Positions 1,447-18,817 are shown, counted from the stretch's first letter. The stretch: 64,000 nt of DNA from an uncultured Alphaproteobacteria bacterium (GCA_963758415.1 CAVWVL010000003.1:42022-106021), one strand, 5' to 3'. A program made the numbers and translations. Notes: a model not told the origin generated them from the letters alone.

Positions 1447-3381
1447 ATGGCTCTCGTGAAGCGGAACCAGATCAGTGGTCACGTCGTGGAGAAGACGGCC
1501 GAGGTGGTCGACCTACCTGGCAGCGCCGGCACCAAACTGGTCGCTGACGCCCAGAAGCGCAAAGCGCGGACGTTCGCTCGGCAGCAGAAAGCCTCCGAGC
1601 GGATCGCGACCGCCACCTCGCAACTGTCCAGCGGGATCGCGGAGTCGGCCTCGGCGGCCGAGGAACTCCGCAAGGCATCCGAGCAGATCGCCCAGGGCGC
1701 CGAGGAGGCAGCAGGTGCTGCACAAGAATCGCAGAAGGCGGTGGTCCACGGCGCCGGCCTGATCCTCCAGGCCACGAGCACCGCCAACCTCTCCGCCACC
1801 AAGAGCGAGGCGCTGCAGGTCATGCTGCAGAACATCTCCGGTCAGATCGCCAATTCAATCGCCGCCATCGGACGTACCGCCGACCGCCAGGAAGGCTCGG
1901 TGAAGAAGGTCGAGGAACTAGAGCGACAGGCAGCCGCCATCTCGGAGGTCGTCAAGGCGGTGGCGCGAATCGCCGATCAGACCAACCTGCTGGCACTCAA
2001 CGCGGCCATCGAGGCGGCACGTGCCGGACAGCACGGCAAGGGCTTTGCCGTGGTCGCCGACGAGGTCCGCACGCTGGCTGAAACCAGCGAAAAGAGCGCA
2101 CGTGAGATCCAGGACCTGATCGCCCAGATCCAGAAGGACGTGAAGGTGATCGCCGAGGGAATCAATGCCTCTGCCGCCGCCGCCAAACAGGAGGTCGAGA
2201 AAGGCAAGGTCATCACCGCGCAGCTGGAGCAGACGCGCACCGACGTGATCGAAATCGCCAATGGTGGTCGCGAGATCGCCAAGGCATCGGAGGAATCTGC
2301 CACCGCCGTCAAAGAGGTGCAGAAGGGTGCCGAGCTGATCGCCGCCGCCGCCGAGGAGCAGAGCGCAGCCTGCCAGGAATCGCTGAAAACCATCGACCAG
2401 CAGACCCAGGCGCTGACCCTGTCCGAGCAGACCGCGCAGGAACTGTCGGAGCTGGCCGACGAACTGAAGAATTCCAGCAATATCTCCAAAAGCAGCGAGG
2501 AAGTCGCCGCGGCGGCCGAGAAACTCTCTTCGGCGGTGGAAGAAATCAACCGGGCCGCCGCGCAGATTATGACGGCGCTCGATCAGATCCAGAAGGGCGC
2601 TCAGCAGCAGGGCGCCGCCACCCAGGAGGCCTCGGCCGCTATCGCCGAAATCGAACGGGCCGGCCAGTTGTCGCAAACCAACGCGAAGTCCGCGGTGGAA
2701 AAGAGCGGAGCCATCTTCGAACTGATGACAGCCAACAAGAAGGCGGTTGACGAACTGATCGCCGGTGTCATGCAGTCGGTCGAGGAGGGAAAGAAAAGCC
2801 GCGAGCAGATGACCGCTCTCGAACAGGTCAGCCGGCGCATCGACAAGATCGTTGACGCCATCACGACAGTCTCGATCCAGACCAACATGCTGGCGGTCAA
2901 CGGCTCGGTCGAGGCGGCACGCGCCGGTGAGTTCGGCAAGGGCTTCGCCGTGGTGTCGACCGATATCCGCAACCTGGCCCGGGATTCGGCCGAGAACGCC
3001 GACCGCATCAAGGACACCATCAAAGCCATTCAGGATCAGATCGGTCAGGTTCGCCGGGATCTGGAGGACATCGGCAACGCCGCCGCTGCGGAGGTCGAGA
3101 AGAACAAGGTCATCAGCACGGATCTGGAAACCGCGGTGAAGGAAGTGACGGCGGTGTTGCAGGGCAACAAGGAAATCCTTGATGGTGCCGAGGAGATCCT
3201 CCGCATGGACAAGGAGGTGCAGACCGGCGTTGAGCAGATCGCCGCCGCCGCCCAGGAGACCACCCGCGCGACCGGCGAGGCGGGCGTCGCCGCCAAGCAG
3301 CAGTCCAAGGGAGCCGAGGAGCTTGCCGCGGCGATCGAGGAGATCGCATCGCTGGCGGACGAGTTGCAGGCCGCCGACTGA
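1447..3381 (+). CDS. Soluble methyl-accepting chemotaxis protein with two signalling domains (DosM-like)
   Basis: Two hairpin-tip motifs, [34 protein letters not shown] and [34 protein letters not shown]; no transmembrane segment; ATG 1447 follows the RBS-like AAGGGGA. Confidence 0.92.
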
Positions 3382-3523
3382 GGTTTCCGCAACCGCCCAC
3401 TTGCGTGGAGCATGGTCGCGCCGGGCGGGTCGTCCAAAGCGTGTGAATCATGCCCTCAAACAAAGAGTTAGACCATTTTCAGGCTGAACAGTCAGGCCGG
3501 GAATGGTCTCGAAAGGACCAACC

Positions 3524-5110
3524 ATGTCCGAAGTTGCGGAAGCGGTCCGGGACCATGTCCGGTCCCCGCCGGAAGATGACACGGGCGTCGGCGATGCCCG
3601 CCAGTTCGTGATCTTCCATGTCGCCGACGAGATGTTCGCGGTTCCCCTGGCCGAGGTTCAGGAAATCATCCGCATGCCTGAGGTGGTGCATGTCCCCATG
3701 AGCCCCGCCGGCCTGGAGGGTCTGGCCAATCTGCGCGGGACCGTGCTGCCGGTCATTCGCCTGCGGCAGATCTTTGGCATGGAACTGGTTGAACATGACG
3801 ATTCCACCCGGGTCGTCATTCTCGACCAGGGCCGGCCCGTCGGGCTCGTGGTCGACCGGGTCGCCAATGTCGTTACTGTCGAGAATGATCGTATCGAAGC
3901 GGCCGACGCTATCCAGGGCACCGTCGACACCGACCTGATGACCGGCATGATCAAGGCCAGCGACGGCAAGTCCATGGTGATGATCCTGGATGCCGCCAAG
4001 GTGGTCGCACGCGAGTTCAAATCGGTCGGCAGGACGCAGCGGACCAAGAGCGCCGACAACGGGCATGACAGCCAGTCCGAAGACCACAAGGCGCACGTCG
4101 ATACCGAAGACGGCAGCGACGAAAGCCAGTTCGTCAGTTTCGAGGTCGCCGGACAGGAATATGCGCTACCGATCGAGCAGGTGCAGGAAATCGTCCAGAT
4201 CCCGGACGAGATCACCGAAGTGCCCAACACCCCGTCACACGTGCTGGGTGTAATGACGCTCAGAAACCGGCTGCTGCCGCTGGTTTCGCTCCGCGACATG
4301 TTCCGCCTGCCGCCGCGTGAGGTCACCGACACTAACAAGATCGTGGTGGTGTCGCTGGGGGACGCGACAGACGGCAGTTCGGTCGGCGTCATGATGGACA
4401 GCGTCAAGGAGGTTCTGCGCGTTGGCCGCTCCGTCATCGACCCGGTGCCCGCGTTGCTTTCCCGTGACGGCGGCCTCAGCGAAATCCAGTCGATCTGCCG
4501 CCTCAACGGAGGCAAGCGGCTGGTGTCGATCCTGTCGTCGGAGAAGATGTTCAACACCGGCGAGATGCGCGCCATCGTCGAGCACCATGAAGGGGAGGAT
4601 GCGGCGATGGGCGAGGCAGCCACCGGGACGCAGTCCGACGACGTTATCGACGATGAGCAGCAGTTCGTCGTCTTCCGCCTGATGAACGAGGAGTACGGCG
4701 TTCCGATCTCGTCGGTGCAGGAGATCGTCCGGGTTCCCGAGGAACTGACCCGCGTGCCCAAGACCCCGGATTTTGTCGAAGGGGTCGTCAACCTGCGGGG
4801 TGTTGTGCTGCCGGTGGTCGACCAGCGCCGCCGCTTCGGCCTGCCGTCGATGGAGCGCAACGACCGTCAGCGGATCATGGTCTACACCATCCGCGGGGTC
4901 CGCACCGGCTTCATCGTCGACCAGGTGCTGGAGGTGATGCGCATCCCGGCCTCGGTGATCGGGCCGTCCCCGACCTTGTCGGAGGAGCAGCAGCGGCTGA
5001 TCCGCCGGGTCGCCAACATCGAAAAGCAGAAGCGCATGATCCTGCTGCTCGACATCGATCAGTTACTCAACACCAAGGAACTGAGCGCGGTCGGAAAAGC
5101 CGCGAAATGA
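3524..5110 (+). CDS. cheW: CheW with three tandem CheW domains
   Basis: Three repeats of (Q)FVxF....EYxxP...VQEI.R.P.....VP..P..V.G..(N/T)LR; RBS AAAGGA before ATG 3524. Confidence 0.92.
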   Translation: MSEVAEAVRDHVRSPPEDDTGVGDARQFVIFHVADEMFAVPLAEVQEIIRMPEVVHVPMSPAGLEGLANLRGTVLPVIRLRQIFGMELVEHDDSTRVVILDQGRPVGLVVDRVANVVTVENDRIEAADAIQGTVDTDLMTGMIKASDGKSMVMILDAAKVVAREFKSVGRTQRTKSADNGHDSQSEDHKAHVDTEDGSDESQFVSFEVAGQEYALPIEQVQEIVQIPDEITEVPNTPSHVLGVMTLRNRLLPLVSLRDMFRLPPREVTDTNKIVVVSLGDATDGSSVGVMMDSVKEVLRVGRSVIDPVPALLSRDGGLSEIQSICRLNGGKRLVSILSSEKMFNTGEMRAIVEHHEGEDAAMGEAATGTQSDDVIDDEQQFVVFRLMNEEYGVPISSVQEIVRVPEELTRVPKTPDFVEGVVNLRGVVLPVVDQRRRFGLPSMERNDRQRIMVYTIRGVRTGFIVDQVLEVMRIPASVIGPSPTLSEEQQRLIRRVANIEKQKRMILLLDIDQLLNTKELSAVGKAAK

Positions 5111-5162
5111 CGAATGCCGCGCCGCGCGCGTTCACCCTGATTTGCTCGGGAGCGCCACCGCC

Positions 5163-6287
5163 ATGCCCAAAGCGTTGATTGTTGAAGATTCGGCGCTGAT
5201 GCGTCGTCATCTGAAGCAGATCCTCGAGGAAAAGGGCGGCTACGAGGTCATGGCGGTGCGCAACGGCATCGATGCCCTGGAGGCGCTGCGCTCGTTCGAT
5301 CCCGACGTCATCACCCTGGACGTCAACATGCCCGAAATGGACGGGCTGACCTGTCTGTCGCGTATCATGGCGGAGCGGCCGAAGCCGGTGGTGATGGTCT
5401 CCTCCCTCACCGAGCGTGGTGCCGAAGTCACATTCGAAGCCCTCGCGCTCGGCGCGGTCGATTTTATCCATAAGCCTGACGGCACCATTTCGCTGAACGT
5501 GCAGCAGGTGGAGGGAGAACTGCTCGCAAAGGTCCACGCGGCCTGCCGAGCGCGGCCGCGGAGCACGGTCGGACTTCGGCAGCGGCTGCACAGCCAGACA
5601 GGTGATGGCCGGGAGCGGCGTTCCGGGGTGGATGGTGCATCCGGGTCCTCTCCACGACCTTTTCGAGACGGCTTCGGTGCCGTGATCATTGGCGTGTCTA
5701 CTGGCGGCCCGGGAACCTTGGAGGAAGTCCTGCCTGGGATCCCGGCTAACTTTCCCTGGCCTGTCGTGGTGGCGCAGCACATGCCGGCCAGCTTCACCAC
5801 CGTGTTCGCGCGCCGCCTCGCCGAACTGTGCCGCGTTCCGGTGATCGAGGCCGCGCATTTGATGCCGCTGAAGCCCGGCGTCATCTACATCGCCAAGGGT
5901 GATGCCGATGTGCTTATCAGCAAGCGTGCCACGGGCTGGATGGTGAGCCCGGTGCCCGCGGCCGACCAGTACCTCTGGCACCCCAGTGTCGCCCGCCTGG
6001 TCGAAAGCGCGATGCAGGCCATCCCTCCGGACCACCTCGTCGGTGTCCTGCTCACCGGCATGGGGGACGATGGCGCCAATGCCATGTGCGAACTGAAGCG
6101 GCGGGGCGGCCGCACCATCGCGCAAGACGAGGCAACCTCGGTGATCTGGGGCATGCCTGGGGAATTGTTCAAGCGTGGCGGCGCCAACCTCATGCTGTCC
6201 GCCAATCGCATCGCCACCCAACTCGATGTCTGGCTGACGCCGCATTCTCCGATCCGGGAGGCACACGGTGGCGCTGGTAAAATCTAG
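5163..6287 (+). CDS. cheB: Chemotaxis methylesterase CheB (REC + methylesterase)
   Basis: REC domain (LIVEDS, TLDVNMP, FIHKP) plus GVSTGGP, QHMP and LTGMGDDGA catalytic motifs. Confidence 0.95.
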   Translation: MPKALIVEDSALMRRHLKQILEEKGGYEVMAVRNGIDALEALRSFDPDVITLDVNMPEMDGLTCLSRIMAERPKPVVMVSSLTERGAEVTFEALALGAVDFIHKPDGTISLNVQQVEGELLAKVHAACRARPRSTVGLRQRLHSQTGDGRERRSGVDGASGSSPRPFRDGFGAVIIGVSTGGPGTLEEVLPGIPANFPWPVVVAQHMPASFTTVFARRLAELCRVPVIEAAHLMPLKPGVIYIAKGDADVLISKRATGWMVSPVPAADQYLWHPSVARLVESAMQAIPPDHLVGVLLTGMGDDGANAMCELKRRGGRTIAQDEATSVIWGMPGELFKRGGANLMLSANRIATQLDVWLTPHSPIREAHGGAGKI

Positions 6288-6888
6288 CCGGGACGGCGCA
6301 TCGCCTCCACCGCAAGCTGAAACGCCCGATCTGGCGACATTGCTGGCCGATCTGGCGGCGGAGCAATCGGCGGTGCGTCGTGCCGCGGTCCGCGCTCTGG
6401 CGGATTATCCGGAAGCGGCGCTCGATCTCTGCGACCGGCTCGGAGCGGAGGCCAGCCCCAGCGTTCGCGCGGTGCTCTTCTCCACCCTCATCCGCCTGAA
6501 GTCACCCGACGTGGCGGCGCGCCTGACCGAACTGCTGCGCAGCCAGGACGTGCCGCTGCGCAACGCCGCGATCGAGGCGCTGCAGGAGATGCCCGATGCC
6601 GTCGCGCCTCATTTCGAGCAATTACTGGCCGACGAGGACAGCGACGTGCGCATTTTCACCGTCAATATTCTGGCGGCACTGCGCCACCCCAGGGCATCCG
6701 AATGGCTCATCGATGTGATGCGCAGCGATCCGCATATCAACGTCTGTGCCGCGGCGGTGGACGGATTGACCGAGGTCGGTGGCCTGGAGGCGCTGCCTGA
6801 TCTGGAGGACCTGCGCGACCGGTTCGCCGGCAATGCTTTCATGGAGTTTGCCATTGATACCGCCATGCGTCGTGTCCGCGGCGAATGA
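6268..6888 (+). CDS. HEAT-repeat protein of the chemosensory operon
   Basis: Repeats such as VRRAAVRAL, LRNAAIEAL, VRIFTVNIL, VCAAAVDGL; lies between cheB and cheR. Confidence 0.85.
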   Translation: MALVKSSRDGASPPPQAETPDLATLLADLAAEQSAVRRAAVRALADYPEAALDLCDRLGAEASPSVRAVLFSTLIRLKSPDVAARLTELLRSQDVPLRNAAIEALQEMPDAVAPHFEQLLADEDSDVRIFTVNILAALRHPRASEWLIDVMRSDPHINVCAAAVDGLTEVGGLEALPDLEDLRDRFAGNAFMEFAIDTAMRRVRGE

Positions 6889-7763
6889 CCGTGGGCTCAT
6901 CCGCCACACCCGCGTCGCCGGACCTGGGCGTCATGACGCACGAGGAGTTCGCGAAGTTCGTGGAATACTTCTACCGGAAGACAGGAATCCAGTTTCAGGA
7001 CAGCAAGAAATACTACGTCGAGCGGCGCATCGCCGACCGTGTCAAACAGACCCGGTCAAAAACGTTTCGGGACTATTTCACCCTGGTTCGCTTTCAGGCA
7101 TCGGGGGAGGAATTGCAGCTTCTAGTCAACTCGATGACCGTGAACGAGACCTACTTTCTGCGGGAGGACTATCAGTTCGACGCCCTGGTCAACGGAATTC
7201 TGCCCGAGATTGCCCGCACCAAGGATCGCGCCAGTCCGATCCGGATCTGGTCCATTCCGTGCTCGTCTGGCGAAGAGCCTTACTCGATCGCCATCAGCAT
7301 CCTTGAGCGGTGGGGTCAGGCCGATACCTGGAATATCGAAATCCAAGGCTCCGACATCGATTCTAAGATCCTTCAGGAAGCGCGAGTTGGCCTGTTCAGC
7401 GCGCGATCCATTTCCCGGGTGCCCACAAACCTGAGGTCGAAATATTTCGTTCCGCGCCCCGACGGCAGTCTGCAGATCAGCGATGACCTTCGGGGTTCGA
7501 TCGATTTCTCGTTGATCAACGTCGTCGACCCCCTGCAGACGCAACGCTTTCGCAACATCGATGTGATCTTCTGTCGCAACCTGCTGATCTATTTCGATGA
7601 CAGCGGCCGGCGACAGACCGTCGAGATGCTGTTCGAGGCCCTGGCTCCAGGTGGTTTCATCTGTCTGGGACATTCCGAAAGCATGAGCCGAATGTCCTCG
7701 GCTTTTCTGCCGCGGAAATTTCAGGACACCATCGTCTACCAAAAGCCCCGGTCCGCGGAGTGA
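6885..7763 (+). CDS. cheR: Chemotaxis methyltransferase CheR
   Basis: TVNETYFLRE, RIWSIPCSSGEEPYSIA, GSDID, DVIFCRNLLIYFD, LGHSES. Confidence 0.95.
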   Translation: MTVGSSATPASPDLGVMTHEEFAKFVEYFYRKTGIQFQDSKKYYVERRIADRVKQTRSKTFRDYFTLVRFQASGEELQLLVNSMTVNETYFLREDYQFDALVNGILPEIARTKDRASPIRIWSIPCSSGEEPYSIAISILERWGQADTWNIEIQGSDIDSKILQEARVGLFSARSISRVPTNLRSKYFVPRPDGSLQISDDLRGSIDFSLINVVDPLQTQRFRNIDVIFCRNLLIYFDDSGRRQTVEMLFEALAPGGFICLGHSESMSRMSSAFLPRKFQDTIVYQKPRSAE

Positions 7764-7767
7764 CCTC

Positions 7768-8190
7768 ATGAGCGAAACAAAAAGCCAGGGACGGGGCGGC
7801 GAAGCAGACAAAAATCGGCCGCGCATCCTGGTCGTCGACGACAGCATCACCATGCGCCTGTTCTACCGATCGGTGCTTGAGGCGGCCGGGTTCGAGATCG
7901 ACGAGGCTGCCAACGGCCTGGAAGGGTACGAAAGGATCCTGACCCGAAATTTCGACCTCGTGATCGTCGACATCAACATGCCGAAGATGGACGGTTACAC
8001 ATTGATCAGGACGGTGCGCGGCGACGCCGCCGTGCGGACCATTCCCGCGGTCTTCGTCAGGACCGAGGCCGGCGAGAAGGACTCCGCCCTGGCCTACGAG
8101 GCCGGAGCAAACTTCTATCTGGTCAAACCAGTGGCTCCTGCCGAATTGGCCGAAGTTGCGCGCCTGATGACGGGCATGGCGGCCCCATGA
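7768..8190 (+). CDS. cheY: CheY-like single-domain response regulator
   Basis: ILVVDDS, IVDINMPKMDG, YLVKP. Confidence 0.88.
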   Translation: MSETKSQGRGGEADKNRPRILVVDDSITMRLFYRSVLEAAGFEIDEAANGLEGYERILTRNFDLVIVDINMPKMDGYTLIRTVRGDAAVRTIPAVFVRTEAGEKDSALAYEAGANFYLVKPVAPAELAEVARLMTGMAAP

Positions 8191-11124: not shown

Positions 11125-11499
11125 ATGCCGTCCACGGTGTTCATTGTCGACGACTCGGTGACCATCCTGATGAGCCTGGAGGCCATCCTGCACAAGGGCG
11201 GCTTCACCGTCGCGAAGGCGGCCAGCGGCGAGGAAGCGGTAACCAAACTGCAGGGCGGACTGAAGCCGAACCTGATCATCACCGACATTCACATGCCCGG
11301 GATGAACGGCATCGAACTCATTCGCAAGGTTCGCACCATGCCCGGGATTCAATTCGTGCCGATCCTTGTGGTGACCACCGAATCGCAGCAGGCCAAGCGC
11401 GACGAGGCGCGTGCCGCCAAGGCAACCGGATGGCTGGTCAAGCCGGTAAAGCCCGACGATATGATGAAAGTGGTCAAGCAGATTCTGCCCAAGGGATGA
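11125..11499 (+). CDS. cheY: CheY response regulator
   Basis: VFIVDDS, IITDIHMPGMNG, VTTES, WLVKP; RBS AAAGGA. Confidence 0.92.
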   Translation: MPSTVFIVDDSVTILMSLEAILHKGGFTVAKAASGEEAVTKLQGGLKPNLIITDIHMPGMNGIELIRKVRTMPGIQFVPILVVTTESQQAKRDEARAAKATGWLVKPVKPDDMMKVVKQILPKG

Positions 11500-12245
11500 C
11501 CGACACCAGCCACCGCGGCAGCAAGATCTCAGACGCAACGATCGAACAGTTCGCGCGAACCAGGGCGATCGCCGTTGTTGGGAGTGCCGCCGCGGCAGTC
11601 GCCGGAGGCGCCGCTGCCGTCGCCGTAGCCTTCGGCGGTGGCGTGGCGATGGCCTCCCTCGTGGCGCTGGTCACGTTCCTCGGCATGGCGATCGGTTATC
11701 TGCTGGGACGCAGGGATGGCGGCGCGGTGAAATCCGCCAGCCGCCTGATGCTCCGGGTGGCTGACGAACTGGTCGAGTACCGCGCGTTCACCAGCCTGCT
11801 GCGCGACCAGGGTGTTCGCATCATCGAAAGCACCAGCGGCGCGGCGGCGGTGATTATCGCCGGGTTGATGGAGATGGGGGACGCGCTCAATCGCATGCGC
11901 ATGCTGGTGGATCGCGTCACAACCGATGACGCCACGGAACTGCGCACCTTGGTCGAGGCCGTCGATGTCCCGGTTCTCGGCCTGTTGGGGCAACTCCAGT
12001 TTCAGGACATAACCCAGCAGCAGATCGCCTTTCTGTCGCGGCTGTCGCTGATGCTCGACGATCACATGGCGGAGCTGTCGCGCCAGTTGGGCGAGCGGCG
12101 CGGGTCCGATCGCGTCGACAAATTCAAGGACCTGTTCGATCAGGCACTCGGCGACTGCGTCATGGACAGCCAGCGCGATGACCATCACACGGCGTCCGGT
12201 CTGGACATGCGGGAAGCCGCCGGCTCCAAACTCGAAATGTTTTGA
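11496..12245 (+). CDS. Membrane-anchored chemotaxis-associated protein with a CheZ-like FQDxxxQ motif
   Basis: N-terminal hydrophobic stretch, helical body, LQFQDITQQQI (12000-12020), C-terminal KLEMF; ATGA overlap with cheY. Confidence 0.7.
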   Translation: MTDTSHRGSKISDATIEQFARTRAIAVVGSAAAAVAGGAAAVAVAFGGGVAMASLVALVTFLGMAIGYLLGRRDGGAVKSASRLMLRVADELVEYRAFTSLLRDQGVRIIESTSGAAAVIIAGLMEMGDALNRMRMLVDRVTTDDATELRTLVEAVDVPVLGLLGQLQFQDITQQQIAFLSRLSLMLDDHMAELSRQLGERRGSDRVDKFKDLFDQALGDCVMDSQRDDHHTASGLDMREAAGSKLEMF

Positions 12246-12258: not shown

Positions 12259-12693
12259 ATGGCCCGCATACTGGTGGTGGATGACGTCGACGTGGTCCGC
12301 CTGGTGATCAGCAAGATCCTCAAGCGAGCCGGTCACAGTGTCGAGGAGGCGAACAGCGGCGACCAGGCCCTGGCACGCGTCACTCGCCGTGCGCCGGATG
12401 CGGTGGTCACCGACCTGTGGATGCCAGGATCCGATGGCCTGGGTCTGATCAACACCTTGCAGGCCAACTTTCCTGCTGTCGCGATCCTCGCCATGACCGG
12501 CGGGTCACCAAAGTATAGCCAGGAATCTTCGCTGGAGCAGGCACGGCGTGCCGGCGTCGTCCAGATCCTGATGAAGCCGATCGATAAAGTCGAGCTGGTG
12601 GACGCGGTCGATCGGGCGCTCAGCGCGGCCGGCGGCCGGCAGGGCAACCCGGATAGTTCCCTCAAGGCGTCCACCACGCCGACTTCAACCTGA
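12259..12693 (+). CDS. Single-domain response regulator
   Basis: ILVVDD, VVTDLWMPGSDG, AMTG, LMKP. Confidence 0.88.
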   Translation: MARILVVDDVDVVRLVISKILKRAGHSVEEANSGDQALARVTRRAPDAVVTDLWMPGSDGLGLINTLQANFPAVAILAMTGGSPKYSQESSLEQARRAGVVQILMKPIDKVELVDAVDRALSAAGGRQGNPDSSLKASTTPTST

Positions 12694-12905
12694 CTGTCAA
12701 GTCAAGGTGCCGCATCTCGTTGTTTGACCGCATGATTGATCCGTTCCAATCGTCCTGATACCGGAATATTTATTCTTGCTTCGGGGGAGGTTGAAACTCA
12801 CCCGGGCCGGCCCAGTGCACGACATTTGCCGCAAGAAATGAAATGCCCGGGAGATTGACGTTCGCTTTGCCGCTCCCACGTGATAAAGACGGGGTGTGGA
12901 GCAAC

Positions 12906-12933
12906 CGATGCCAGTCTTTCGATGCCAGTCTTT
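12906..12933. repeat. 14-bp tandem duplication (CGATGCCAGTCTTT x2) in the rsbR upstream region
   Basis: Read directly from the sequence. Confidence 0.9.
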
Positions 12934-13059
12934 CAGCCCCGAGGCCCGATTGCGAAAGCGCCGCTCGACTGGCGGTGACCATTGAATTTTCCTAGGTATT
13001 ATTTCATATAACGTGATTTAGCCGAAGACGAGGGCTAACCATATTTCAGGGATGCACTT

Positions 13060-13903
13060 ATGAAGACGCTCAGTTCACTCATTGACGGCGGTCGTAAAGA
13101 TCTGCTTGAGAACTGGGGTGGCATGTTGCGCACCACCTTCACCGGCGCGGCGCGAAAGAACCCGGCAGACCTGGCAACCCTCGCGGCGATCATCGAACGG
13201 CTGGCGGACGCCCTCAATCTTGCCGTCTCTCCCCCGGTCATCGCCGATACCGCCTTCAAGGGTCTAGTGGCATTCATGTCCGACGTCAGCGCCGCCCTGG
13301 CACGCGAAGGCTACACCCCGGAAGAGACCGGCAATTTCGTCATGAGCCTGAAGCAGGCGGCGGATCCCCTGCTGGCGCAAGAATACGGCATGGCGCCAAA
13401 CCAGTTGATCAGCGAAATGGCGGTATTCAACACCATCATTGACAAGCTCGCCTTTCTCACCTTCTCGGCTTACGTGGTGGCGCGCGAAGACGTCATCCTG
13501 CGCCAAAGCGAGTTCGATCCTCGAAATTTCAACGCCGGCGCTGCTCATCTGGGACTCGGTGGTGATGATGCCGCTGGTGGGCGTGATCGATACCCGGCGA
13601 GCGCAGTACATCATGGAGCAACTGCTCAACGCCATATCGCGGGAGGAGGCGAGGGTGGCGATCCTCGACGTCACCGGCGTGCCGATCATCGACACCCGCG
13701 TCGCGCTGCATCTGACCCAGGCGGTCACCGCGGCACGTATGCTGGGCGCCGAGGTGGTCATCACCGGTTTCAGCCCGGAGGCTGCCCAGACACTCGTCAA
13801 GCTCGACGTCAACCTCGGCGGCATGGTCACCAGGGGCACGCTCCGGGAAGGCTTCGCCGAGGCCCTGCGCATTCTGAAAAAGCGTGTCGGGGTCACCGTC
13901 TGA
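13060..13903 (+). CDS. rsbR: Stressosome RsbR (RsbRD_N-like sensor + STAS), +1 frameshift at about 13513 (probably a sequencing error)
   Basis: N-terminal [10 protein letters not shown]...[17 protein letters not shown] in the 13060 frame; [39 protein letters not shown] in the 13439 frame. Both Thr positions equivalent to B. subtilis RsbR T171 and T205 are conserved. Removing one T at 13513/13514 joins the frames. Confidence 0.85.
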
Positions 13904-13914
13904 GGACCACGAAC

Positions 13915-14313
13915 ATGCGCATCCCCATCCTGAGGCTCGGCAATATTCTTCTGACATCGATCCAGTCAGATATCACCGACGAGCACGCGACCACGCTGCA
14001 GACCAACATCGCGGCGCGTATGCGGCAGACCCACGCCCGCGGCGTCATCCTCGATATCACTTCGCTCGAGATCATCGACTCATACATGGCGCGCATCCTG
14101 AACGAAACCGCACGCATGGCGCTCCTCATGGGCGGTGAGGTCGTCATCACCGGAATGAACCCCATGGTCGCGCTCACGCTTGTGGAGATGGGGCGCGAGC
14201 TCGTGGACGTGATGAGCGCGGTCACCCTCGAGTACGGGGTCGAGATGCTGCGGGCGAAACTGAGGGAGCTGGATGGCGTCGGCGGGGAAGCTAGCCTCCA
14301 TGTTGCAGGATGA
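13915..14313 (+). CDS. rsbS: Stressosome RsbS (STAS antagonist)
   Basis: MRIPILRLGNILLTSIQ...GVILDITSLEIIDSYMARIL, with the S59-equivalent Ser conserved. Confidence 0.88.
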   Translation: MRIPILRLGNILLTSIQSDITDEHATTLQTNIAARMRQTHARGVILDITSLEIIDSYMARILNETARMALLMGGEVVITGMNPMVALTLVEMGRELVDVMSAVTLEYGVEMLRAKLRELDGVGGEASLHVAG

Positions 14314-14716
14314 CGTCCGTATCGTGGTTCCGTTGCGATTGCCCGACGATATCGTCCGGGCACGGCAGAGCGGCCGCGATATCGCCCGCACACTCGGTTT
14401 CGGTATGGCGGATCAGACCAGGCTGGCGACCGCGATTTCCGAAATCACCCGCAACGCCATCCACTACGGCGGCGGCGGCGAATGCGAGATTGTCGCCGGC
14501 CATTGGGGGCGGACAGGCGAAATCACCGTCACCATCCGCGATCAGGGGCCAGGCATCCCGGACGTGGAGCGGGCGATGACGCCCGGGTTCAGCACCGGCA
14601 ACAGCCTGGGAATGGGACTGTCTGGCACCAAACAATTGGTGGACACTCTTGTCATCGAATCGGCGCCCGGGCGAACGCACGTGGTGATGGTCATGCGTCG
14701 ATCGGGGCTACGATGA
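14300..14716 (+). CDS. rsbT: RsbT serine/threonine switch kinase (copy 1)
   Basis: RLATAISEITRNA, DQGPGI, GFSTGNSLGMGLSGTKQLVD. Confidence 0.88.
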   Translation: MLQDDVRIVVPLRLPDDIVRARQSGRDIARTLGFGMADQTRLATAISEITRNAIHYGGGGECEIVAGHWGRTGEITVTIRDQGPGIPDVERAMTPGFSTGNSLGMGLSGTKQLVDTLVIESAPGRTHVVMVMRRSGLR

Positions 14717-15462
14717 CCATCCCCCGGATGAACCGGGTTGCGACGACCCTCGCCAGGACAGACCCGGGTACCACGACCGGGACCGCACCGACCCGACCAG
14801 CCTTGCCGCTCGCTCCCGGCGTCACCCTGCCCTCTCGGAAAAACGTCGCGGTGGTCAGGCAGTTCGATGTCTTCCATGCCCGAGAGGCGGCCGCCGCCAT
14901 GGCCACCCGCATCGGCTTCAGCCGCCCCGCCGCTTATCGCCTGGCGACCGCCGTGAGCGAACTGGGCAACAATCTGCTCGATCACGCGCGAACCGGCGGG
15001 CGCGTGGAGCTGATGCCAATATCCCGGGACGGAGTTCAGGGCATCGAGGTGGTTGTCGAGGACGACGGGCCGGGTATTGCCGACCGGGAGATGGCCATGA
15101 CCGACGGCTTCTCCACTGACCGTGGGCTGGGCGGCGGGCTGGGGGGGTGCCGGCGTCTGGTGGATGAATTCGCGCTGGAGTCATCGGTGGGAAAAGGCAC
15201 TCGGGTGACGGCGCGTCTGTGGCTTCGCAAATCGCCCCGCATTACCGGCCCGGAACGACAATGCGGCGGGACCGTGCCTCCTGTCGGCGCCGATCTGGCG
15301 CAAGGCGGCGGCCAGCCTGTTCCGGATGCAGACCCCGGGCGGCCGCCGTGTAAGGCTCATCACGACGGCCACGGTCCGGTCAGCAGCGATCCCGACAGGG
15401 CAAGCCCCGACGCCGTGGGCAGGCTGCGGCGGACGGCCGTGGCGCGGCGTTCCTCGCGATGA
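14713..15462 (+). CDS. rsbT: RsbT-like kinase (copy 2) with N- and C-terminal low-complexity extensions
   Basis: RLATAVSELGNN, DDGPGI, GFSTDRGLGGGLGGCRRLVDEF; the 3' roughly 75 codons look non-conserved. Confidence 0.8.
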   Translation: MTIPRMNRVATTLARTDPGTTTGTAPTRPALPLAPGVTLPSRKNVAVVRQFDVFHAREAAAAMATRIGFSRPAAYRLATAVSELGNNLLDHARTGGRVELMPISRDGVQGIEVVVEDDGPGIADREMAMTDGFSTDRGLGGGLGGCRRLVDEFALESSVGKGTRVTARLWLRKSPRITGPERQCGGTVPPVGADLAQGGGQPVPDADPGRPPCKAHHDGHGPVSSDPDRASPDAVGRLRRTAVARRSSR

Positions 15463-15550
15463 AGCAAAATCGCGCATCCTCCCCGTCGAGGAACTTTACG
15501 ATCAATGGAGCGTCGGACCATTGGGGGTCGGCATCGTGAGCGTCGGAGTA

Positions 15551-16126
15551 ATGAGCGTCGGGCTCGCCAGAAGGTCGGCGAATGCCGCTGATGTGTGCGG
15601 CGACATGGCTGGCTGGTGGTCCAGGGACGGTGTGGAACTGCTGGCCATCGCCGACGGGCTGGGACACGGCAAGGATGCGGCTGTGGCGGCCGCGGCGGCG
15701 CTCGAGGCAATCGCGGCATGGCAGGGAGACAATCCGGTCGGGCTGTTTCATGGCATGAACGTGGCGCTGCGGCCAACCCGAGGGGCGGCGGTCGGCGTGG
15801 CCCGCATGGACTGGGCGACGGAGCAGATCACCTATGCGGCCGTGGGCAACACCCGGGCGGCCCTGTTCGGCGCACATACCACCCGCCTCGATAGTTGCGC
15901 CGGTATTGTCGGCGGCGGCTACCGGCGCCTCACCCCGATCACCGTTCCGTTCCTGTCCGGCGACGTTCTGGCGCTATGGACCGATGGCCTGGACGAGCAA
16001 CTCGAACTCACCGCCGCGGATCATTCCGCGCCCGGGATGGACGCCATGGCCTTGAGACTGCTCGACCGCTTCGCCAGGGGCCGTGACGATCGCTGCATAG
16101 TGGTCGCCCGATTAGTCCCGAGCTGA
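15551..16126 (+). CDS. rsbX: RsbX-like PP2C/SpoIIE phosphatase (start uncertain; ORF open from 15326)
   Basis: PPM motifs CGD, IADGLGHG, AVGNTR, LWTDGL, DDR. Confidence 0.8.
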   Translation: MSVGLARRSANAADVCGDMAGWWSRDGVELLAIADGLGHGKDAAVAAAAALEAIAAWQGDNPVGLFHGMNVALRPTRGAAVGVARMDWATEQITYAAVGNTRAALFGAHTTRLDSCAGIVGGGYRRLTPITVPFLSGDVLALWTDGLDEQLELTAADHSAPGMDAMALRLLDRFARGRDDRCIVVARLVPS

Positions 16127-16127
16127 G

Positions 16128-17540
16128 GTGGAAACCGTCGTGGCGCCCGCGGCCCAACTTTTTGATTTGTCTGACTGGTACGGCCGGCTTCAGCGCGCCT
16201 ATATGGCGACCAGTGACGAGGCGGCGCTCGAGGAAGCGGCTGATCTTGGTCGCCTGATGGCGGTCACCGAAGTCACCATGGAATTGGTCATCGAGATGCA
16301 TGGCGAAGTGCTCGCCGACGAGCTCGCCCGCGCTCCGCATGCCGAGGCGGGCCGGTTGGTGGCCGCTGCCGTCACCGTTCTGTCGGAGCTGATGCTGGCC
16401 TGCCGCCTGGCGTCCCAGCGGGTCGCGTTCGACGACGACACGACCCAACCGGACCGTCAGCCGCGGACGGACGAGCCGCCGTCCGAATTCGTCAGGTTTC
16501 ATCCCGATGGCGCGCTGGTCGGCGATCCATCGGGCGATATCTACGGCTGGCTGGATATTCGGGTCGGCCACGAGGTCTGCCTCGCGGCACGAGCCGCGAT
16601 CGCGCAACGCCGCATTGCCATGTTCCAGACCACCCTGTCCGCCGGGACCGATCCGATGCGCCTGATTGTCTGTCCGTTCCACGATGGTGGCGGCATCATC
16701 GCCATCTCTGACGTCAAACACCTGGTCGACGCGCGCGAACGAGCCTTTCAGCGGCGCAAACTGGAAAGTGTCGGCCAAGTGACCAGCGGTCTGGCACACG
16801 AACTCAACAACCTGTTGCAGCCTATCCTCAGCATGGCGCAGATCGCTCAGGAGGACTATGCGGCCGATACGGAGCTTGGTGAAGCGCTCGCGGTCATCCT
16901 CGACAGCACCAAGCGTGCCGCTGCGATCGTCCACGGCATGCTGCTGTATGTGCGTCGCTCACCCAAGGAGCTGCGGCCCCTGTGCCTCGTCGCGGTGGTG
17001 AAGCAAGGCGTGAACGCCCTGCGCCGTACGGTGCCTTCAGGGATCCTGCTCGATCTGTGTGCCGACCAGGCGGTGGGCCAGGTTGCCGCCAATCCGGACG
17101 AGCTGAACCAGATCATGAAGAATTTGGTCGACAATGCGATCCACGCGATGGGCGGACGCGGCGCGGTGAAGGTCCGCGTGGACGAGGTGCGGATCGCCGA
17201 CGCGTTGGCCGCCCGCATGCAAATAGGTGGGGGTCATTATGCCTGCCTGTCGATCGCCGACAGCGGGCATGGCATTGCACCGGCTCTGCTGGAGCGGGTC
17301 TTCGAACCGTTCTTCACCACCAAAGGCATCGGTGAGGGCACCGGCCTGGGGCTGTCCATCGTGCAGGGGATTGTCAGGTCATGGGGCGGCTGCATCGTCG
17401 CCCGTAACGTTCCGGACGGGGGTGCCGCGTTTGACGTCCTGCTGCCCCTGGTGAATCTTCCCGCACCGCCGGGCGATGACGGTTGTATTTACGGTCCCTC
17501 AAGCGTCGGCGACGCAGTTCGGCCGGCAATTTTAGGATAG
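16128..17540 (+). CDS. Sensor histidine kinase with an N-terminal RsbU_N-like domain
   Basis: N-term YGRLQRAYMATSDEAALEEAADLGRLM...LVIEMHGEVL resembles the RsbU N-terminal domain; H-box LAHELNNLLQPI; NLVDNA, DSGHGI, FEPFFTTK.IGEGTGLGL. Confidence 0.85.
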   Translation: METVVAPAAQLFDLSDWYGRLQRAYMATSDEAALEEAADLGRLMAVTEVTMELVIEMHGEVLADELARAPHAEAGRLVAAAVTVLSELMLACRLASQRVAFDDDTTQPDRQPRTDEPPSEFVRFHPDGALVGDPSGDIYGWLDIRVGHEVCLAARAAIAQRRIAMFQTTLSAGTDPMRLIVCPFHDGGGIIAISDVKHLVDARERAFQRRKLESVGQVTSGLAHELNNLLQPILSMAQIAQEDYAADTELGEALAVILDSTKRAAAIVHGMLLYVRRSPKELRPLCLVAVVKQGVNALRRTVPSGILLDLCADQAVGQVAANPDELNQIMKNLVDNAIHAMGGRGAVKVRVDEVRIADALAARMQIGGGHYACLSIADSGHGIAPALLERVFEPFFTTKGIGEGTGLGLSIVQGIVRSWGGCIVARNVPDGGAAFDVLLPLVNLPAPPGDDGCIYGPSSVGDAVRPAILG

Positions 17541-17545
17541 TGGAT

Positions 17546-18817
17546 ATGGACCCTTCATTCGCGCGCTGCAGTGAACGGGCAGTCCCCTCGCGCTGGATGC
17601 TGCTTTCCGGACTGGCCTGCAGCCTGCTTCTCGCGGACGTTGTGGTCGCCCTTCTACCGGTTACCTCGACGACAATGGGGACCGCTCTGCGCCTGGCGAT
17701 CGTCATGGTCGCCGCGGCTGGCTTGCTGGCGGCGTCGCGACGACGGCAGGCGACCCTGCCCGTCGCGGGGTGTCCGCCGCCGCCCCGGCAGCAGGAACCG
17801 GCCGCGCCCTCGTCGGTCAGCCCCGCCAGTCCGCCGCTCTACACCGGATACGCCGTGGAAGCGGTTGCCTGCTTCCGCAATATAATTGGGGTTCTCAAAG
17901 AGGAAACCGAGCGAGTCATCGGAGACACCGATCTCAACGCCGTCAGCCTGATGGAGGACCTGCGGAGTGTCGAGACCAGCATGGAGGCGTTGCTGACCTT
18001 TATCACCGCCGCGGGTTCCAGCGACCGGGTTGTCCGGATCATCGAGCACACGGAATCCCAGTTGACACACAGCAAGATGGTGATCGAGGAGTTCAGCAGG
18101 GAACGCATCCTGGATGCCGCCAACGCTCAAAAGGCCATGGATGATATAGGCGTGGTCGTTGGCGACCTAGGGCGCATGATCCAGGTCGTGCGCACGCTGT
18201 CCCGGCAGACCCGTATGCTCGCGTTCAATGCGAGCATCGAAGCCACGCGGGCCGGTGTCGCCGGGCAAGGCTTCGCCGTCATCGCATCGGAGATCAAGGA
18301 TCTCTCGTTGCTCTCGGATAAGGCCGCGGTGCAGATCGGCAGCGGCATCGAGAAGCTTGAACACGTGGTCCAGGCGAGCCTGGACACCATAGTCGGCCAA
18401 CGCATCACCAAGGAGACCAGTGGCTTCAACGACATTTCCAATGCCGTAAGCGAACTGACCGAGAATTTGCAGAAGCTGTTCAGCCATCAGCGCGACACTC
18501 TGACGAAGGTCCACTACGAGAACGAGCAAATGGCCGAGCCCATTATGCAGATGATCGGCGCCATTCAATTTCAGGACGTGCTTAAGCAACGGCTTCAGGC
18601 CATCGTCCACTGCTTCGAGAAGATCACCGGTTGCATCGAGAATTCCGTAAACGGCCTGGCGGACGGGAACAGCACGCGGGAACAGGTGGCGACCGTCCTG
18701 GATGCTCAGCTCGGCGAGGCTATTCAGTTCGCGATGCAGGAGCTACGGGGCAGCCGCCAGCCGGCGGCAGGCCAGCCAGACGCCGAACCCGCGGGTGCCG
18801 CGATGGAGATGTTCTGA
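17546..18817 (+). CDS. MCP-like protein with one signalling tip and a C-terminal CheZ-like FQDxxxQ motif
   Basis: Two N-terminal hydrophobic segments; QTRMLAFNASIEATRAGVAGQGFAVIASEIKDLS; IQFQDVLKQRL (18569-18589); ends AMEMF; starts 5 nt after the kinase stop. Confidence 0.82.
   Translation: MDPSFARCSERAVPSRWMLLSGLACSLLLADVVVALLPVTSTTMGTALRLAIVMVAAAGLLAASRRRQATLPVAGCPPPPRQQEPAAPSSVSPASPPLYTGYAVEAVACFRNIIGVLKEETERVIGDTDLNAVSLMEDLRSVETSMEALLTFITAAGSSDRVVRIIEHTESQLTHSKMVIEEFSRERILDAANAQKAMDDIGVVVGDLGRMIQVVRTLSRQTRMLAFNASIEATRAGVAGQGFAVIASEIKDLSLLSDKAAVQIGSGIEKLEHVVQASLDTIVGQRITKETSGFNDISNAVSELTENLQKLFSHQRDTLTKVHYENEQMAEPIMQMIGAIQFQDVLKQRLQAIVHCFEKITGCIENSVNGLADGNSTREQVATVLDAQLGEAIQFAMQELRGSRQPAAGQPDAEPAGAAMEMF

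What the first reader, a model, noticed from the sequence alone, without database searches (positions are those of the whole stretch)
1447..18817. Stressosome operon physically and genetically wired to an F9-type cytoplasmic chemosensory system
Seen in sequence: a full che operon is followed on the same strand, after 366 nt, by rsbR-rsbS-rsbT-rsbT-rsbX-kinase. That operon ends in an MCP-like gene starting 5 nt after the kinase stop. Two related FQDxxxQ/EMF proteins bracket the rsb genes. RsbR T171/T205-equivalent and RsbS S59-equivalent phosphosites are conserved. No sigmaB, RsbV or RsbW is in the window. Established: RsbRST modules are known outside Firmicutes with varied outputs, and F9 systems (V. 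cholerae cluster I, R. centenum Che2) form cytoplasmic arrays whose inputs are poorly known. Inference: two large cytoplasmic signalling assemblies share one pathway, with the stressosome supplying input to, or gating, a chemosensory array whose own MCP has no sensor domain. I know of no description of such a coupling.
Basis: partly seen in the sequence, partly recalled or inferred. Interest (0 to 1): 0.82.

Follow-up and report, generated by a model that had tools for sequence, protein, structure and literature searches.

The report
Stressosome cassette inside F9 chemosensory cluster
A stress-sensing "stressosome" gene set with its own kinase sits inside a cytoplasmic (F9-type) chemotaxis-like gene cluster, the same arrangement recurs in about a dozen other alphaproteobacteria, and I found no published description of it, so it offers a testable clue to what these poorly understood arrays do, although in this genome the key sensor gene rsbR is frameshifted.

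Summary
Window 1447-18817 encodes, on one strand, a complete F9-type che cluster: a DosM-like double-tipped receptor, a triple CheW, CheB, a HEAT protein, CheR, CheY, CheA, CheY, FQD1 and CheY3. After 366 nt come rsbR-rsbS-rsbT-rsbT'-rsbX, a histidine kinase with an RsbU_N domain, and an MCP-like gene 5 nt later.

The adjacency is not unique. The block cheY3-rsbRSTT'X-kinase lies at the same place in about 11 species-level genomes, including Pararhodospirillum oryzae, Magnetospirillum fulvum MGU-K5, Skermanella and Azospirillum MAGs, and a more distant family. In the four gene-called contigs, cheY3 and rsbR overlap by 4 nt. About 8 sister clusters lack the block and join FQD1 directly to the MCP-like gene. 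The stressosome module is therefore a cassette embedded in the cluster.

Every RsbR of this clade is che-linked. Thirteen native F9 clusters of the window's own order lack the cassette, and no sampled congener has the cluster, so it was probably acquired horizontally.

Most likely mechanism (inferred): RsbT activates the RsbU_N kinase, which phosphorylates CheY3 and converges with CheA signalling. I found no paper describing this coupling.

The parts
1..904 (+). Transposase remnants (Mu-transposase C-terminal / rve_3 fragments) directly upstream of the cluster
   Evidence: Pfam. More IS110-like and tail-sheath-like ORFs lie further upstream on the contig (ORF N-terminal sequences only, no family search).
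1447..3381 (+). DosM-like soluble chemoreceptor with two MCP signalling domains and no sensor domain
   Evidence: Pfam MCPsignal, 2 stretches, 211 bits. 74-92% identical to the first gene of related clusters.
3503..5110 (+). Triple CheW (three concatenated CheW domains)
   Evidence: Pfam CheW, 3 stretches, 340.9 bits.
5142..6287 (+). CheB (receiver domain plus methylesterase)
   Evidence: Pfam.
6268..6888 (+). HEAT-repeat protein, a conserved member of these clusters
   Evidence: Pfam HEAT_2. Present in all related and native F9 clusters fetched that reach this position.
6885..7763 (+). CheR methyltransferase
   Evidence: Pfam CheR_N plus CheR.
7768..8190 (+). CheY1, single-domain receiver. 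D12, D13, D57 and K109 are kept; Arg replaces Thr at the T87 position.
   Evidence: Pfam; alignment with E. coli CheY.
8187..10826 (+). CheA (Hpt, long insert, dimerisation domain, HATPase, CheW-like domain)
   Evidence: Pfam. About 390 residues lie between Hpt and the dimerisation domain.
10830..11102 (+). Small conserved 90-aa protein with weak STAS_2-like similarity
   Evidence: Conserved after cheA in all related loci that include the cheA 3' end. Pfam STAS_2 E 0.011 here and 0.0012 in L009, both below the cut-off.
11125..11499 (+). CheY2, single-domain receiver, the most conserved gene of the cluster (71-96% identical in relatives)
11496..12245 (+). FQD1: hydrophobic N-terminus, invariant LQFQD-T-QQ motif, and a (V/L)E(L/M)F tail that is C-terminal here but followed by about 7 residues in 4 of 9 aligned homologues. 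No Pfam family.
   Evidence: The motif aligns with the E. coli CheZ D143/Q147 site, but without statistical support.
12259..12693 (+). CheY3, single-domain receiver. It is present only where the rsb cassette is present.
   Evidence: Its stop overlaps the rsbR start by 4 nt in L005, L008, L010 and L011.
12694..13059 (+). 366-nt intergenic region with one promoter-like site (12975-13002), partly conserved in the closest relative
   Evidence: No terminator-like site follows cheY3. The number of promoter-like sites is not above chance.
13060..13903 (+). rsbR (RsbRD_N plus STAS), interrupted by a +1 frameshift at about 13511
   Evidence: Pfam; frames; DNA alignment with relatives; PDB RsbR matches at E 1e-28 to 1e-30 for the intact orthologue.
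13915..14313 (+). rsbS (single STAS domain, phosphorylatable Ser conserved)
   Evidence: phmmer against Listeria RsbS E 7.5e-31 and B. subtilis RsbS E 1.3e-27.
14300..14716 (+). rsbT (GHKL serine kinase of the SpoIIAB/RsbW/RsbT type)
   Evidence: Pfam HATPase_c_2; PDB anti-sigma F factor E 1e-8, N and G1 boxes present.
14713..15462 (+). Second rsbT-like kinase gene. The conserved part ends at about 15235. About 300 nt that relatives lack follows.
15530..16126 (+). rsbX-type PP2C/SpoIIE phosphatase. The start is approximate; the ORF is open from 15326.
   Evidence: Pfam SpoIIE. Relatives align from ORF residue 65-90 onward, about 70 in the closest.
16128..17540 (+). Histidine kinase with an N-terminal RsbU_N domain, HisKA and HATPase. 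It has no receiver domain here; the kinase is a hybrid (carries a receiver) in most relatives.
   Evidence: Pfam RsbU_N 27.2 bits against a cut-off of 25.5. It is the only RsbU_N match in the genome. Hybrid forms.
17546..18817 (+). MCP-like protein ('MCPFQD'): two N-terminal hydrophobic helices, an MCP signalling hairpin, an FQD domain homologous to FQD1, and an invariant C-terminal xE(L/M)F
   Evidence: Pfam MCPsignal 73.8 bits; alignment of 31 homologues; AF2 model pLDDT 71.6; Foldseek top hits are chemoreceptors.

Best explanation
This is an F9-class, DosM-type cytoplasmic chemosensory gene cluster, probably acquired horizontally.

It carries a seven-gene cassette, cheY3-rsbR-rsbS-rsbT-rsbT'-rsbX-hk. 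The cassette sits between the cluster's accessory gene FQD1 and its membrane-anchored MCP-like gene.

The cassette is a stressosome-type module with a two-component output. The proposed steps are:
1. RsbR and RsbS sequester RsbT.
2. On a signal, RsbT is released and binds the RsbU_N domain of the adjacent histidine kinase. In some relatives it would also bind an RsbU_N-PAS-GGDEF-EAL protein.
3. The kinase phosphorylates a single-domain receiver, most likely CheY3.
4. RsbX resets the stressosome.

CheY3 is always gained or lost together with the cassette. The whole block is embedded in, and in relatives translationally coupled to, the che operon. Stress-derived and CheA-derived phosphoryl signals are therefore proposed to converge on the same pool of CheY-like receivers and their FQD-domain partners.

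What is shown: the gene content, the domains, the conserved phosphosites, the conserved embedded synteny and the cassette behaviour.

What is inferred: RsbT acting on the kinase, the kinase acting on CheY3, and any effect on the array.

In this particular genome rsbR is frameshifted, so the module may be impaired unless the shift is a sequencing error.
For: F9 identity:
- The cluster has two MCPsignal domains in one soluble receptor and a triple CheW. These match the published F9 hallmarks (PMC7534058).

Stressosome identity:
- RsbS matches Listeria and B. subtilis RsbS at E 1e-27 to 1e-31, with the phosphorylatable Ser conserved.
- RsbR matches solved RsbR chains at E 1e-28 to 1e-30, with both Thr sites conserved.
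- Two GHKL kinases and a SpoIIE phosphatase are present.

Output:
- The kinase's RsbU_N match is above the Pfam cut-off and is the only one in the genome.
- The same N-terminal region heads a GGDEF-EAL protein placed after rsbX in L008 and L014.
- RsbU_N on downstream proteins of proteobacterial RSTX modules is already read as the RsbT target (PMC9237108).

Linkage:
- The identical layout occurs in MFD09671, BP5.bin88, P. oryzae NBRC 107573, M. fulvum MGU-K5, a Skermanella MAG, an Azospirillum MAG, Azospirillaceae MAG_BA399, metagenome contigs, and a distant family (G771).
- cheY3 and rsbR overlap by 4 nt in L005, L008, L010 and L011.
- Sister clusters lack exactly the cheY3-to-kinase block.
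- All RsbR genes of this clade are che-linked.
- Nine other alphaproteobacterial RSTT'X modules are not che-linked.
Against: - No experiment or expression data were available.
- Phosphotransfer partners cannot be read from sequence. CheY1, CheY2 and CheY3 are all about 30% identical to each other.
- Most relatives have a hybrid kinase with its own receiver domain and no Hpt in the cassette, so the phosphorelay route is unclear.
- The window has a 366-nt gap with a promoter-like site before rsbR, so the two halves may be transcribed separately here.
- About 8 sister clusters and 13 of 13 native F9 clusters of the same order work without the cassette. The stressosome is therefore not a general F9 input.
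- rsbR is frameshifted in this genome.
- RsbU_N is detected above the cut-off only in the window's kinase. In relatives it is weak or undetected.
Confidence: 0.5

Rival explanations
1. Signal flows the other way. The F9 array is the sensor and the stressosome cassette is its output device. CheA phosphorylates CheY3, and CheY3~P acts on RsbR and RsbS to release RsbT. RsbT then switches on the RsbU_N kinase, or the GGDEF-EAL enzyme in some relatives.
For: - cheY3 lies immediately upstream of rsbR and overlaps it by 4 nt in L005, L008, L010 and L011.
- The output of F9 systems is unknown (PMC7534058).
- In L008 and L014 the cassette includes a c-di-GMP enzyme, a typical terminal output.
- CheY3 lacks the aromatic residue at the Y106 position that CheY uses for motor signalling.
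Against: - I know of no precedent for a receiver domain acting on RsbR.
- Clusters without rsb keep CheY1, CheY2, FQD1 and the MCP-like gene, so the base system has its own receivers.
- The co-loss of CheY3 with the cassette fits both directions equally well.
Confidence: 0.2
2. The two systems are only neighbours. The cassette is a self-contained stressosome two-component pathway that sits in the che cluster for co-expression under the same (stress or low-oxygen) conditions, or by hitch-hiking during transfer. There is no biochemical cross-talk.
For: - The cassette is detachable. rsb-positive and rsb-negative clusters are interleaved on the CheA and CheY2+FQD1 trees, and at least 2 changes are forced.
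- One MAG holds one cluster of each kind.
- The window has its own promoter-like site before rsbR.
- F9 genes are reported to be expressed under stress conditions (bioRxiv 10.64898/2026.05.11.724241).
Against: - The insertion site is always the same, inside the operon and ahead of the last che-cluster gene.
- That position has been kept over deep divergence (RsbR N-domain 30-57% identical), with overlapping stop and start codons.
- All RsbR genes of this clade are che-embedded.
- Nine other alphaproteobacterial RSTT'X modules are never near che genes.
Confidence: 0.2
3. In this genome the locus is a decaying import. After horizontal acquisition the cassette is being lost, so nothing is wired here whatever happens in relatives.
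For: - rsbR has a +1 frameshift.
- The ParA-like gene found in most relatives is absent.
- The kinase has lost its receiver domain.
- An extra segment of about 300 nt lies between rsbT' and rsbX.
- Transposase remnants lie directly upstream.
- None of 17 sampled congeners has the cluster.
- A second, intact stressosome locus exists on contig 10.
Against: - All other 18 genes are intact.
- A single extra base in a TT dinucleotide is also a typical assembly error.
- The closest relative (MFD09671) shares the ParA-less layout and the kinase without a receiver, yet has an intact rsbR. Those features are therefore lineage traits, not decay.
Confidence: 0.25

Closest known systems
F9-class chemosensory system (Vibrio cholerae cluster I: CheA VC1397, triple CheW VC1402, DosM VC1403)
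   Same: A soluble receptor with two signalling domains, a concatenated triple CheW, CheA, CheB, CheR and CheY in one cluster, and no sensor domain on the scaffold receptor (PMC7534058). CheA has a long insert between P1 and P3, as a preprint reports for F9 CheA.
   Different: Here the cluster also holds a HEAT protein, three single-domain receivers, two FQD-domain proteins and an embedded rsbRSTT'X-kinase cassette. None of these is described for V. cholerae in the papers I read. F-class assignment by CheA profile was not possible with these tools.
RsbRSTX 'Vibrio-type' stressosome modules with non-sigma-B outputs (V. vulnificus RSTX plus the D1/D2 two-component proteins; proteobacterial modules with RsbU_N-bearing downstream proteins)
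   Same: The R-S-T-X order with RsbX directly after RsbT, no sigma factor or RsbV/RsbW, and a downstream histidine kinase with an RsbU_N-like N-terminus taken to be the RsbT target.
   Different: RsbR has an RsbRD_N domain rather than a haem-globin sensor domain. There are two tandem RsbT paralogues, as in other alphaproteobacterial modules. The module is embedded in a che operon together with a dedicated CheY-like receiver. In V. vulnificus the link to motility is indirect, through fleQ and c-di-GMP (PMC10014275).
Bacillus subtilis / Listeria stressosome (RsbR-RsbS-RsbT to RsbU to RsbV/RsbW to sigma B)
   Same: RsbS and the RsbR STAS domain are clear homologues with the Ser and Thr phosphosites conserved. 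An RsbU_N domain is the receiver of RsbT.
   Different: The output is a histidine kinase, not a PP2C phosphatase and partner switch. There is no sigma B.
CheZ (E. coli CheY~P phosphatase)
   Same: The invariant FQD1 motif FQD(I/V)T(Q/R)Q lines up with CheZ FQDLTGQ, which holds catalytic D143 and Q147. Both proteins are helical. Both have a short hydrophobic tail ending in Phe: strictly C-terminal in CheZ, the window's FQD1 and MCPFQD, but followed by about 7 residues in 4 of 9 FQD1 homologues.
   Different: There is no significant homology: hhalign probability is below 1%, there is no Pfam hit, and NCBIfam Phos_CheZ reaches only E 0.015, far below its cut-off. In the MCP-like paralogue family the residue at D+4 is mostly Arg, not Gln. 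The fold search found chemoreceptors, not CheZ.

Membership tests
F9 chemosensory class | DosM-type soluble receptor with two signalling domains | tested here: met
   Pfam MCPsignal, two stretches in a 644-aa protein with no other domain. The feature is as defined in PMC7534058.
F9 chemosensory class | Concatenated triple CheW | tested here: met
   Three CheW stretches in a 535-aa protein.
F9 chemosensory class | CheA falls in the F9 clade (MiST / Wuichet-Zhulin class profiles) | not testable with these tools
   No F-class HMMs or reference CheA set were on hand. The only supporting evidence is the long P1-P3 insert, which is consistent.
F9 chemosensory class | Forms double-layered cytoplasmic arrays | not testable with these tools
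   This needs cryo-electron tomography.
Stressosome (RsbR-RsbS-RsbT) | RsbR: an N-terminal sensor domain plus a C-terminal STAS domain with the two conserved Thr residues, as one protein | tested here: inconclusive
   The domains and both Thr residues are present. The frame is broken by one extra base at about 13511. The reads could not be checked. Orthologues in relatives are intact, except in the error-rich contig L004.
Stressosome (RsbR-RsbS-RsbT) | RsbS: a single STAS domain with the phosphorylatable Ser | tested here: met
   E 7.5e-31 to Listeria RsbS. The Ser aligns with the S56/S59 position.
Stressosome (RsbR-RsbS-RsbT) | RsbT: a GHKL serine kinase encoded after rsbS | tested here: met
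   HATPase_c_2 match with the ExxxN and DxGxG boxes. A second paralogue follows.
Stressosome (RsbR-RsbS-RsbT) | Assembly into a pseudo-icosahedral complex of about 1.5-1.8 MDa that sequesters RsbT | not testable with these tools
   This needs purification and cryo-EM.
RsbT-responsive outputs (RsbU_N-bearing proteins) | An N-terminal RsbU_N domain on the protein encoded downstream | tested here: met
   27.2 bits against a cut-off of 25.5. It is the sole RsbU_N match in the genome.
CheZ phosphatase family | Detectable homology to CheZ profiles | tested here: not met
   No Pfam hit. hhalign probability is 0.6% for FQD1 and 0.1% for MCPFQD. NCBIfam Phos_CheZ gives 14.8 bits against a cut-off of 350.
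CheZ phosphatase family | Catalytic DxxxQ motif | tested here: inconclusive
   The motif is invariant in FQD1 (D171, Q175). In the MCP-like paralogues it is mostly DxxxR.
Methyl-accepting chemotaxis proteins (for the 17546 gene) | MCP signalling hairpin with the conserved tip | tested here: met
   MCPsignal 73.8 bits against a cut-off of 34.6. Foldseek top hits are chemoreceptor cytoplasmic domains.

The most novel reading that the evidence does not exclude
The stressosome and the double-layered F9 chemoreceptor array, two very large cytoplasmic signalling assemblies, form one circuit in these bacteria. Either the stressosome is the missing sensory input of an otherwise sensor-less F9 array, or it is that array's long-sought output device. 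In either case the link runs through RsbT, an RsbU_N histidine kinase and a dedicated CheY-like receiver. The FQD-domain proteins with tethered xELF tails would act as the shared docking or phosphatase partners.
Probability: 0.3. Interest if true: 0.85.

Novelty: new variant of a known kind. Interest (0 to 1): 0.62.

Why it matters
The function, input and output of F9 chemosensory systems are unknown, even in V. cholerae. The role of stressosomes outside Firmicutes is also barely understood.

A conserved, operon-embedded stressosome-kinase-receiver cassette in one F9 subclade gives both fields a concrete circuit to test. Natural controls with and without the cassette exist, and one genome holds both versions.

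Cultured strains carry intact loci: Pararhodospirillum oryzae NBRC 107573 and Magnetospirillum fulvum MGU-K5.

The work also defines two uncharacterised F9 accessory families: the FQD domain with its xELF tail, and an 80-aa STAS-like protein.

Tried and rejected
1. CheZ identity of the FQD proteins was rejected as a family assignment. It was tested by a profile search of PDB, hhalign against E. coli CheZ, Pfam and NCBIfam, and a fold search. Only the motif resemblance remains.

2. The FQD1 structure model was too poor to use (pLDDT 51.6).

4. No Rfam family is found in 1-20000.

5. The segment of about 300 nt between rsbT' and rsbX and the 366-nt gap are not repeats or mobile elements. Each is unique in the genome.

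6. The idea that the stressosome is a general F9 partner was rejected. Thirteen of 13 native F9 clusters of the same order lack the cassette, and so do 3 of the 4 other F9 clusters in the class sample.

7. A single origin of the rsb-positive state on the cluster tree was rejected. At least 2 changes are forced.

8. The Wuichet and Zhulin 2010 paper could not be retrieved. Pane-Farre 2005 was seen only as a cited reference, and I did not try to retrieve it.

9. A CheA-based genome scan used patterns too specific to reach beyond the subclade.

10. The earlier-scan reports of the same pairing in Clostridia could not be tested, because no scans of the genome collection were left.


Full report
**What is in the window.** ORF listing and Pfam scans give one co-directional gene train on the + strand:
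- a soluble receptor with two MCP signalling domains and nothing else (1447-3381)
- a protein of three CheW domains (3503-5110)
- CheB (5142-6287)
- a HEAT-repeat protein (6268-6888)
- CheR (6885-7763)
- a receiver, CheY1 (7768-8190)
- CheA with a roughly 390-residue insert between Hpt and the dimerisation domain (8187-10826)
- a small 90-aa gene (10830-11102)
- CheY2 (11125-11499)
- a family-less protein, FQD1 (11496-12245)
- CheY3 (12259-12693)

After a 366-nt gap come:
- rsbR (13060-13903)
- rsbS (13915-14313)
- rsbT (14300-14716)
- a second rsbT-like gene (from 14713)
- a SpoIIE/PP2C rsbX (to 16126)
- a histidine kinase with RsbU_N, HisKA and HATPase domains (16128-17540)
- five bases later, an MCP-signalling protein (17546-18817)

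**A correction to the observation.** rsbR is not a single open frame. Its RsbRD_N part is in frame 1 and its STAS part in frame 2. A DNA alignment with four orthologues shows one extra T at about 13511 (GAGTTCG, against GAGTCG in the closest relative). Three of the four orthologues, and all other relatives, encode an intact RsbR of 275-280 residues; the error-rich contig L004 also carries an extra base here. The other 18 genes are intact.

**Identity of the parts.**
- The double-tipped receptor and the triple CheW are the two features that the V. cholerae literature gives as typical of F9 systems (PMC7534058).
- RsbS matches Listeria and B. subtilis RsbS at E 1e-27 to 1e-31. Its Ser in 'IIDSY' aligns with the known phosphosite.
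- The RsbR orthologue matches solved RsbR chains at E 1e-28 to 1e-30. Both Thr sites ('DVTGV' and 'AAQTLV') are present in the window's STAS frame.
- Both RsbT paralogues keep the GHKL N and G1 boxes.
- The kinase's RsbU_N hit is above the Pfam cut-off and is the only one in the 6.24-Mb genome.
- No sigma-70 region 2 match and no further STAS domain lies in the window.
- All three single-domain receivers keep D12, D13, D57 and K109. CheY1 has Arg at the T87 position and CheY3 has Ile at the Y106 position.

**The FQD proteins.**
- FQD1 and the terminal MCP-like protein share a C-terminal domain of about 120 residues (hhalign 92.6%, E 4.5e-7).
- That domain carries a PxxxMxGxxQFQDV motif and an xE(L/M)F tail. 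The tail ends the protein throughout the MCP-like family and in the window's FQD1, but about 7 more residues follow it in 4 of 9 FQD1 homologues.
- Both proteins have hydrophobic N-terminal segments. In the AF2 model of the MCP-like protein these form two N-terminal helices; the FQD1 model was too poor to use. They are probably membrane-anchored.
- The FQD1 motif lines up with the CheZ active-site motif FQDLTGQ. There is no statistical support for homology.
- In the MCP-like family the D+4 residue is mostly Arg.
- The MCP-like model finds chemoreceptors, not CheZ.
- I therefore treat 'CheZ-like' as a functional lead for FQD1 only.

**Is the adjacency conserved?** Yes.
- Searches with the MCP-like protein, RsbR and CheA, followed by tblastn mapping, recover the order CheA - 80-aa gene - (ParA-like) - CheY2 - FQD1 - CheY3 - RsbR - RsbS - RsbT - RsbT' - RsbX - (GGDEF-EAL) - kinase - MCP-like.
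- Genomes with this layout are an uncultured alphaproteobacterium (MFD09671), BP5.bin88, Pararhodospirillum oryzae NBRC 107573, Magnetospirillum fulvum MGU-K5 (MCP-like gene inverted), a Skermanella MAG, an Azospirillum MAG, Azospirillaceae MAG_BA399, a mis-binned contig and four metagenome contigs. A degraded copy occurs in MFD06092.
- In the four gene-called contigs L005, L008, L010 and L011, cheY3 and rsbR overlap by 4 nt.
- An unbiased sample of 400 alphaproteobacterial species contains four other triple-CheW genomes. One of them (G771, another family) has RsbS 9.2 kb downstream of CheW3 in the same layout.

**It behaves as a cassette.**
- About eight sister clusters join FQD1 directly to the MCP-like gene and lack exactly cheY3 through the kinase. 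They are BRH_c57, a Rhodospirillum MAG, an uncultured Rhodospirillaceae MAG, M. fulvum DSM 13234, Magnetospirillum sp. UT-4, two Telmatospirillum genomes, and a second locus of MAG_BA399.
- The FQD genes are therefore F9-subclade accessories, not part of the rsb module. The rsb module is embedded in the cluster.
- CheY3 occurs only with the cassette.
- On the CheA and CheY2+FQD1 trees the two states are interleaved, and well-supported branches force at least two changes.
- Identities of the rsb genes fall off in roughly the same order as those of the che genes. This fits an old association with repeated precise loss or exchange.
- Every RsbR of this clade found in the genome collection is che-embedded.
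- Nine other alphaproteobacterial R-S-T-T'-X modules, and this genome's own second stressosome locus on contig 10, are not che-linked.

**Limits of the association, and the origin of the locus.**
- In a 400-genome sample of the window's own order, 24 other genomes have multi-domain (double- or triple-) CheW proteins, the best at only 60% identity.
- None of the 17 sampled congeners has one.
- The 13 native clusters I fetched (DosM-CheW3-CheB-HEAT-CheR-CheY-CheA, followed by a CheY-like receiver) carry no rsb genes.
- Relatives in other orders are 65-89% identical.
- Transposase remnants lie at window 1-904, and further IS110-like and tail-sheath-like ORFs lie upstream (the latter judged from ORF sequences only).
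- The cluster was therefore probably imported horizontally. GC content does not differ from the genome.

**Mechanism.**
- The best-supported step is RsbT acting on the kinase through RsbU_N. This is the established role of that domain in B. subtilis, and it is already proposed for proteobacterial RSTX modules (PMC9237108).
- The same N-terminal region heads a GGDEF-EAL protein inserted after rsbX in L008 and L014.
- That the kinase then serves CheY3 rests only on their strict co-inheritance. That this converges with CheA signalling rests on the embedded, translationally coupled position.
- The reverse flow (CheA to CheY3 to the stressosome to the kinase or c-di-GMP enzyme) is equally compatible with the synteny. 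Simple co-expression without cross-talk cannot be excluded.
- In the window and its closest relative a partly conserved 260-366-nt spacer precedes rsbR. In the window it holds one promoter-like site (TATTAT; TATCAT in the relative) and no terminator-like site after cheY3. An internal promoter is therefore possible here.

**Novelty.**
- Full-text searches for stressosome together with chemotaxis, chemosensory, CheA or aerotaxis terms found no paper describing such a locus.
- The V. vulnificus work links its stressosome to motility only indirectly, through fleQ and c-di-GMP.
- Key older sources were not available: Wuichet and Zhulin 2010 could not be retrieved, and Pane-Farre 2005 was seen only as a cited reference.
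- Notes from earlier agents of this scan report the same F9-stressosome pairing in clostridial genomes. I could not test that here. If it is true, the pairing arose or spread across phyla, which would strengthen the case for a functional link.

**Verdict.**
The genetic coupling is real and conserved in one F9 subclade, but the biochemical wiring and its direction remain inference.
- It is a new variant built from two known kinds of system and is of moderate to high interest. It is best pursued in cultured relatives with intact loci.

Noticed in passing
own genome, contig C10:263300-269700 (locus L013:5318-11711): A second, intact stressosome locus that is not near che genes. It encodes RsbR (RsbRD_N plus STAS), RsbS, RsbT, a fused RsbT-like::SpoIIE protein (338 aa), and a 1246-aa protein with the domains HATPase_c_2-HisKA-HATPase-REC-PAS-HisKA-HATPase-REC. 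In the sample of 400 genomes of the order, 14 others have RsbRD_N matches scoring like this locus (78-94 bits, against 39 for the window's rsbR).
   Followed up: partly
own genome, contig C7:620511-620750 (- strand): The genome's only other STAS domain lies next to a different che cluster (C7, about 608-620 kb). This may be a CheS-like or partner-switch accessory of that system.
   Followed up: no
window 10830-11102: An 80-90-aa gene directly after cheA is conserved in all related F9 clusters that include the cheA 3' end, and in some unrelated alphaproteobacterial che loci (L060, L066, L072). It shows only sub-threshold STAS_2 similarity (E 0.001-0.01). It is an uncharacterised F9 accessory.
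   Followed up: partly
window 10826-11125, compared with L005, L006, L008-L011: Most related clusters carry a ParA/MipZ-like ATPase gene between the 80-aa gene and cheY2, as expected for positioning cytoplasmic arrays. The window, its closest relatives L001 and L004, and apparently a few other clusters with a short cheA-cheY2 spacing (L020, L021, L095) lack it.
   Followed up: no
window 15235-15530: About 300 nt lie between the conserved end of rsbT' and the start of rsbX. They are absent from relatives (about 40 nt there) and unique in the genome. The rsbT' ORF runs on through this stretch.
   Followed up: partly
L016 and L095 (Azospirillaceae MAG_BA399, two contigs): One MAG holds two paralogous FQD-type F9 clusters, one with and one without the stressosome cassette. 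This is a natural internal control, if the binning is right.
   Followed up: no
L001:9259-9840 and L004:7526-9873: Between the cassette kinase and the MCP-like gene, the closest relatives carry extra material that the window lacks. L001 has a second kinase fragment. L004 has a PAS_2 (phytochrome-type) gene followed by split HisKA and HATPase pieces.
   Followed up: no
window 1-904 and contig C3 upstream (about 25-42 kb before the cluster): IS21-like transposase fragments (Pfam), plus upstream ORFs that look like IS110 transposase and a contractile-tail sheath protein (judged from their sequences only), flank the cluster. This fits a mobile or island context.
   Followed up: partly
window 7768-8190: CheY1 has Arg at the position of the conserved Thr/Ser (T87 of E. 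coli CheY), which is unusual for a functional receiver switch.
   Followed up: no
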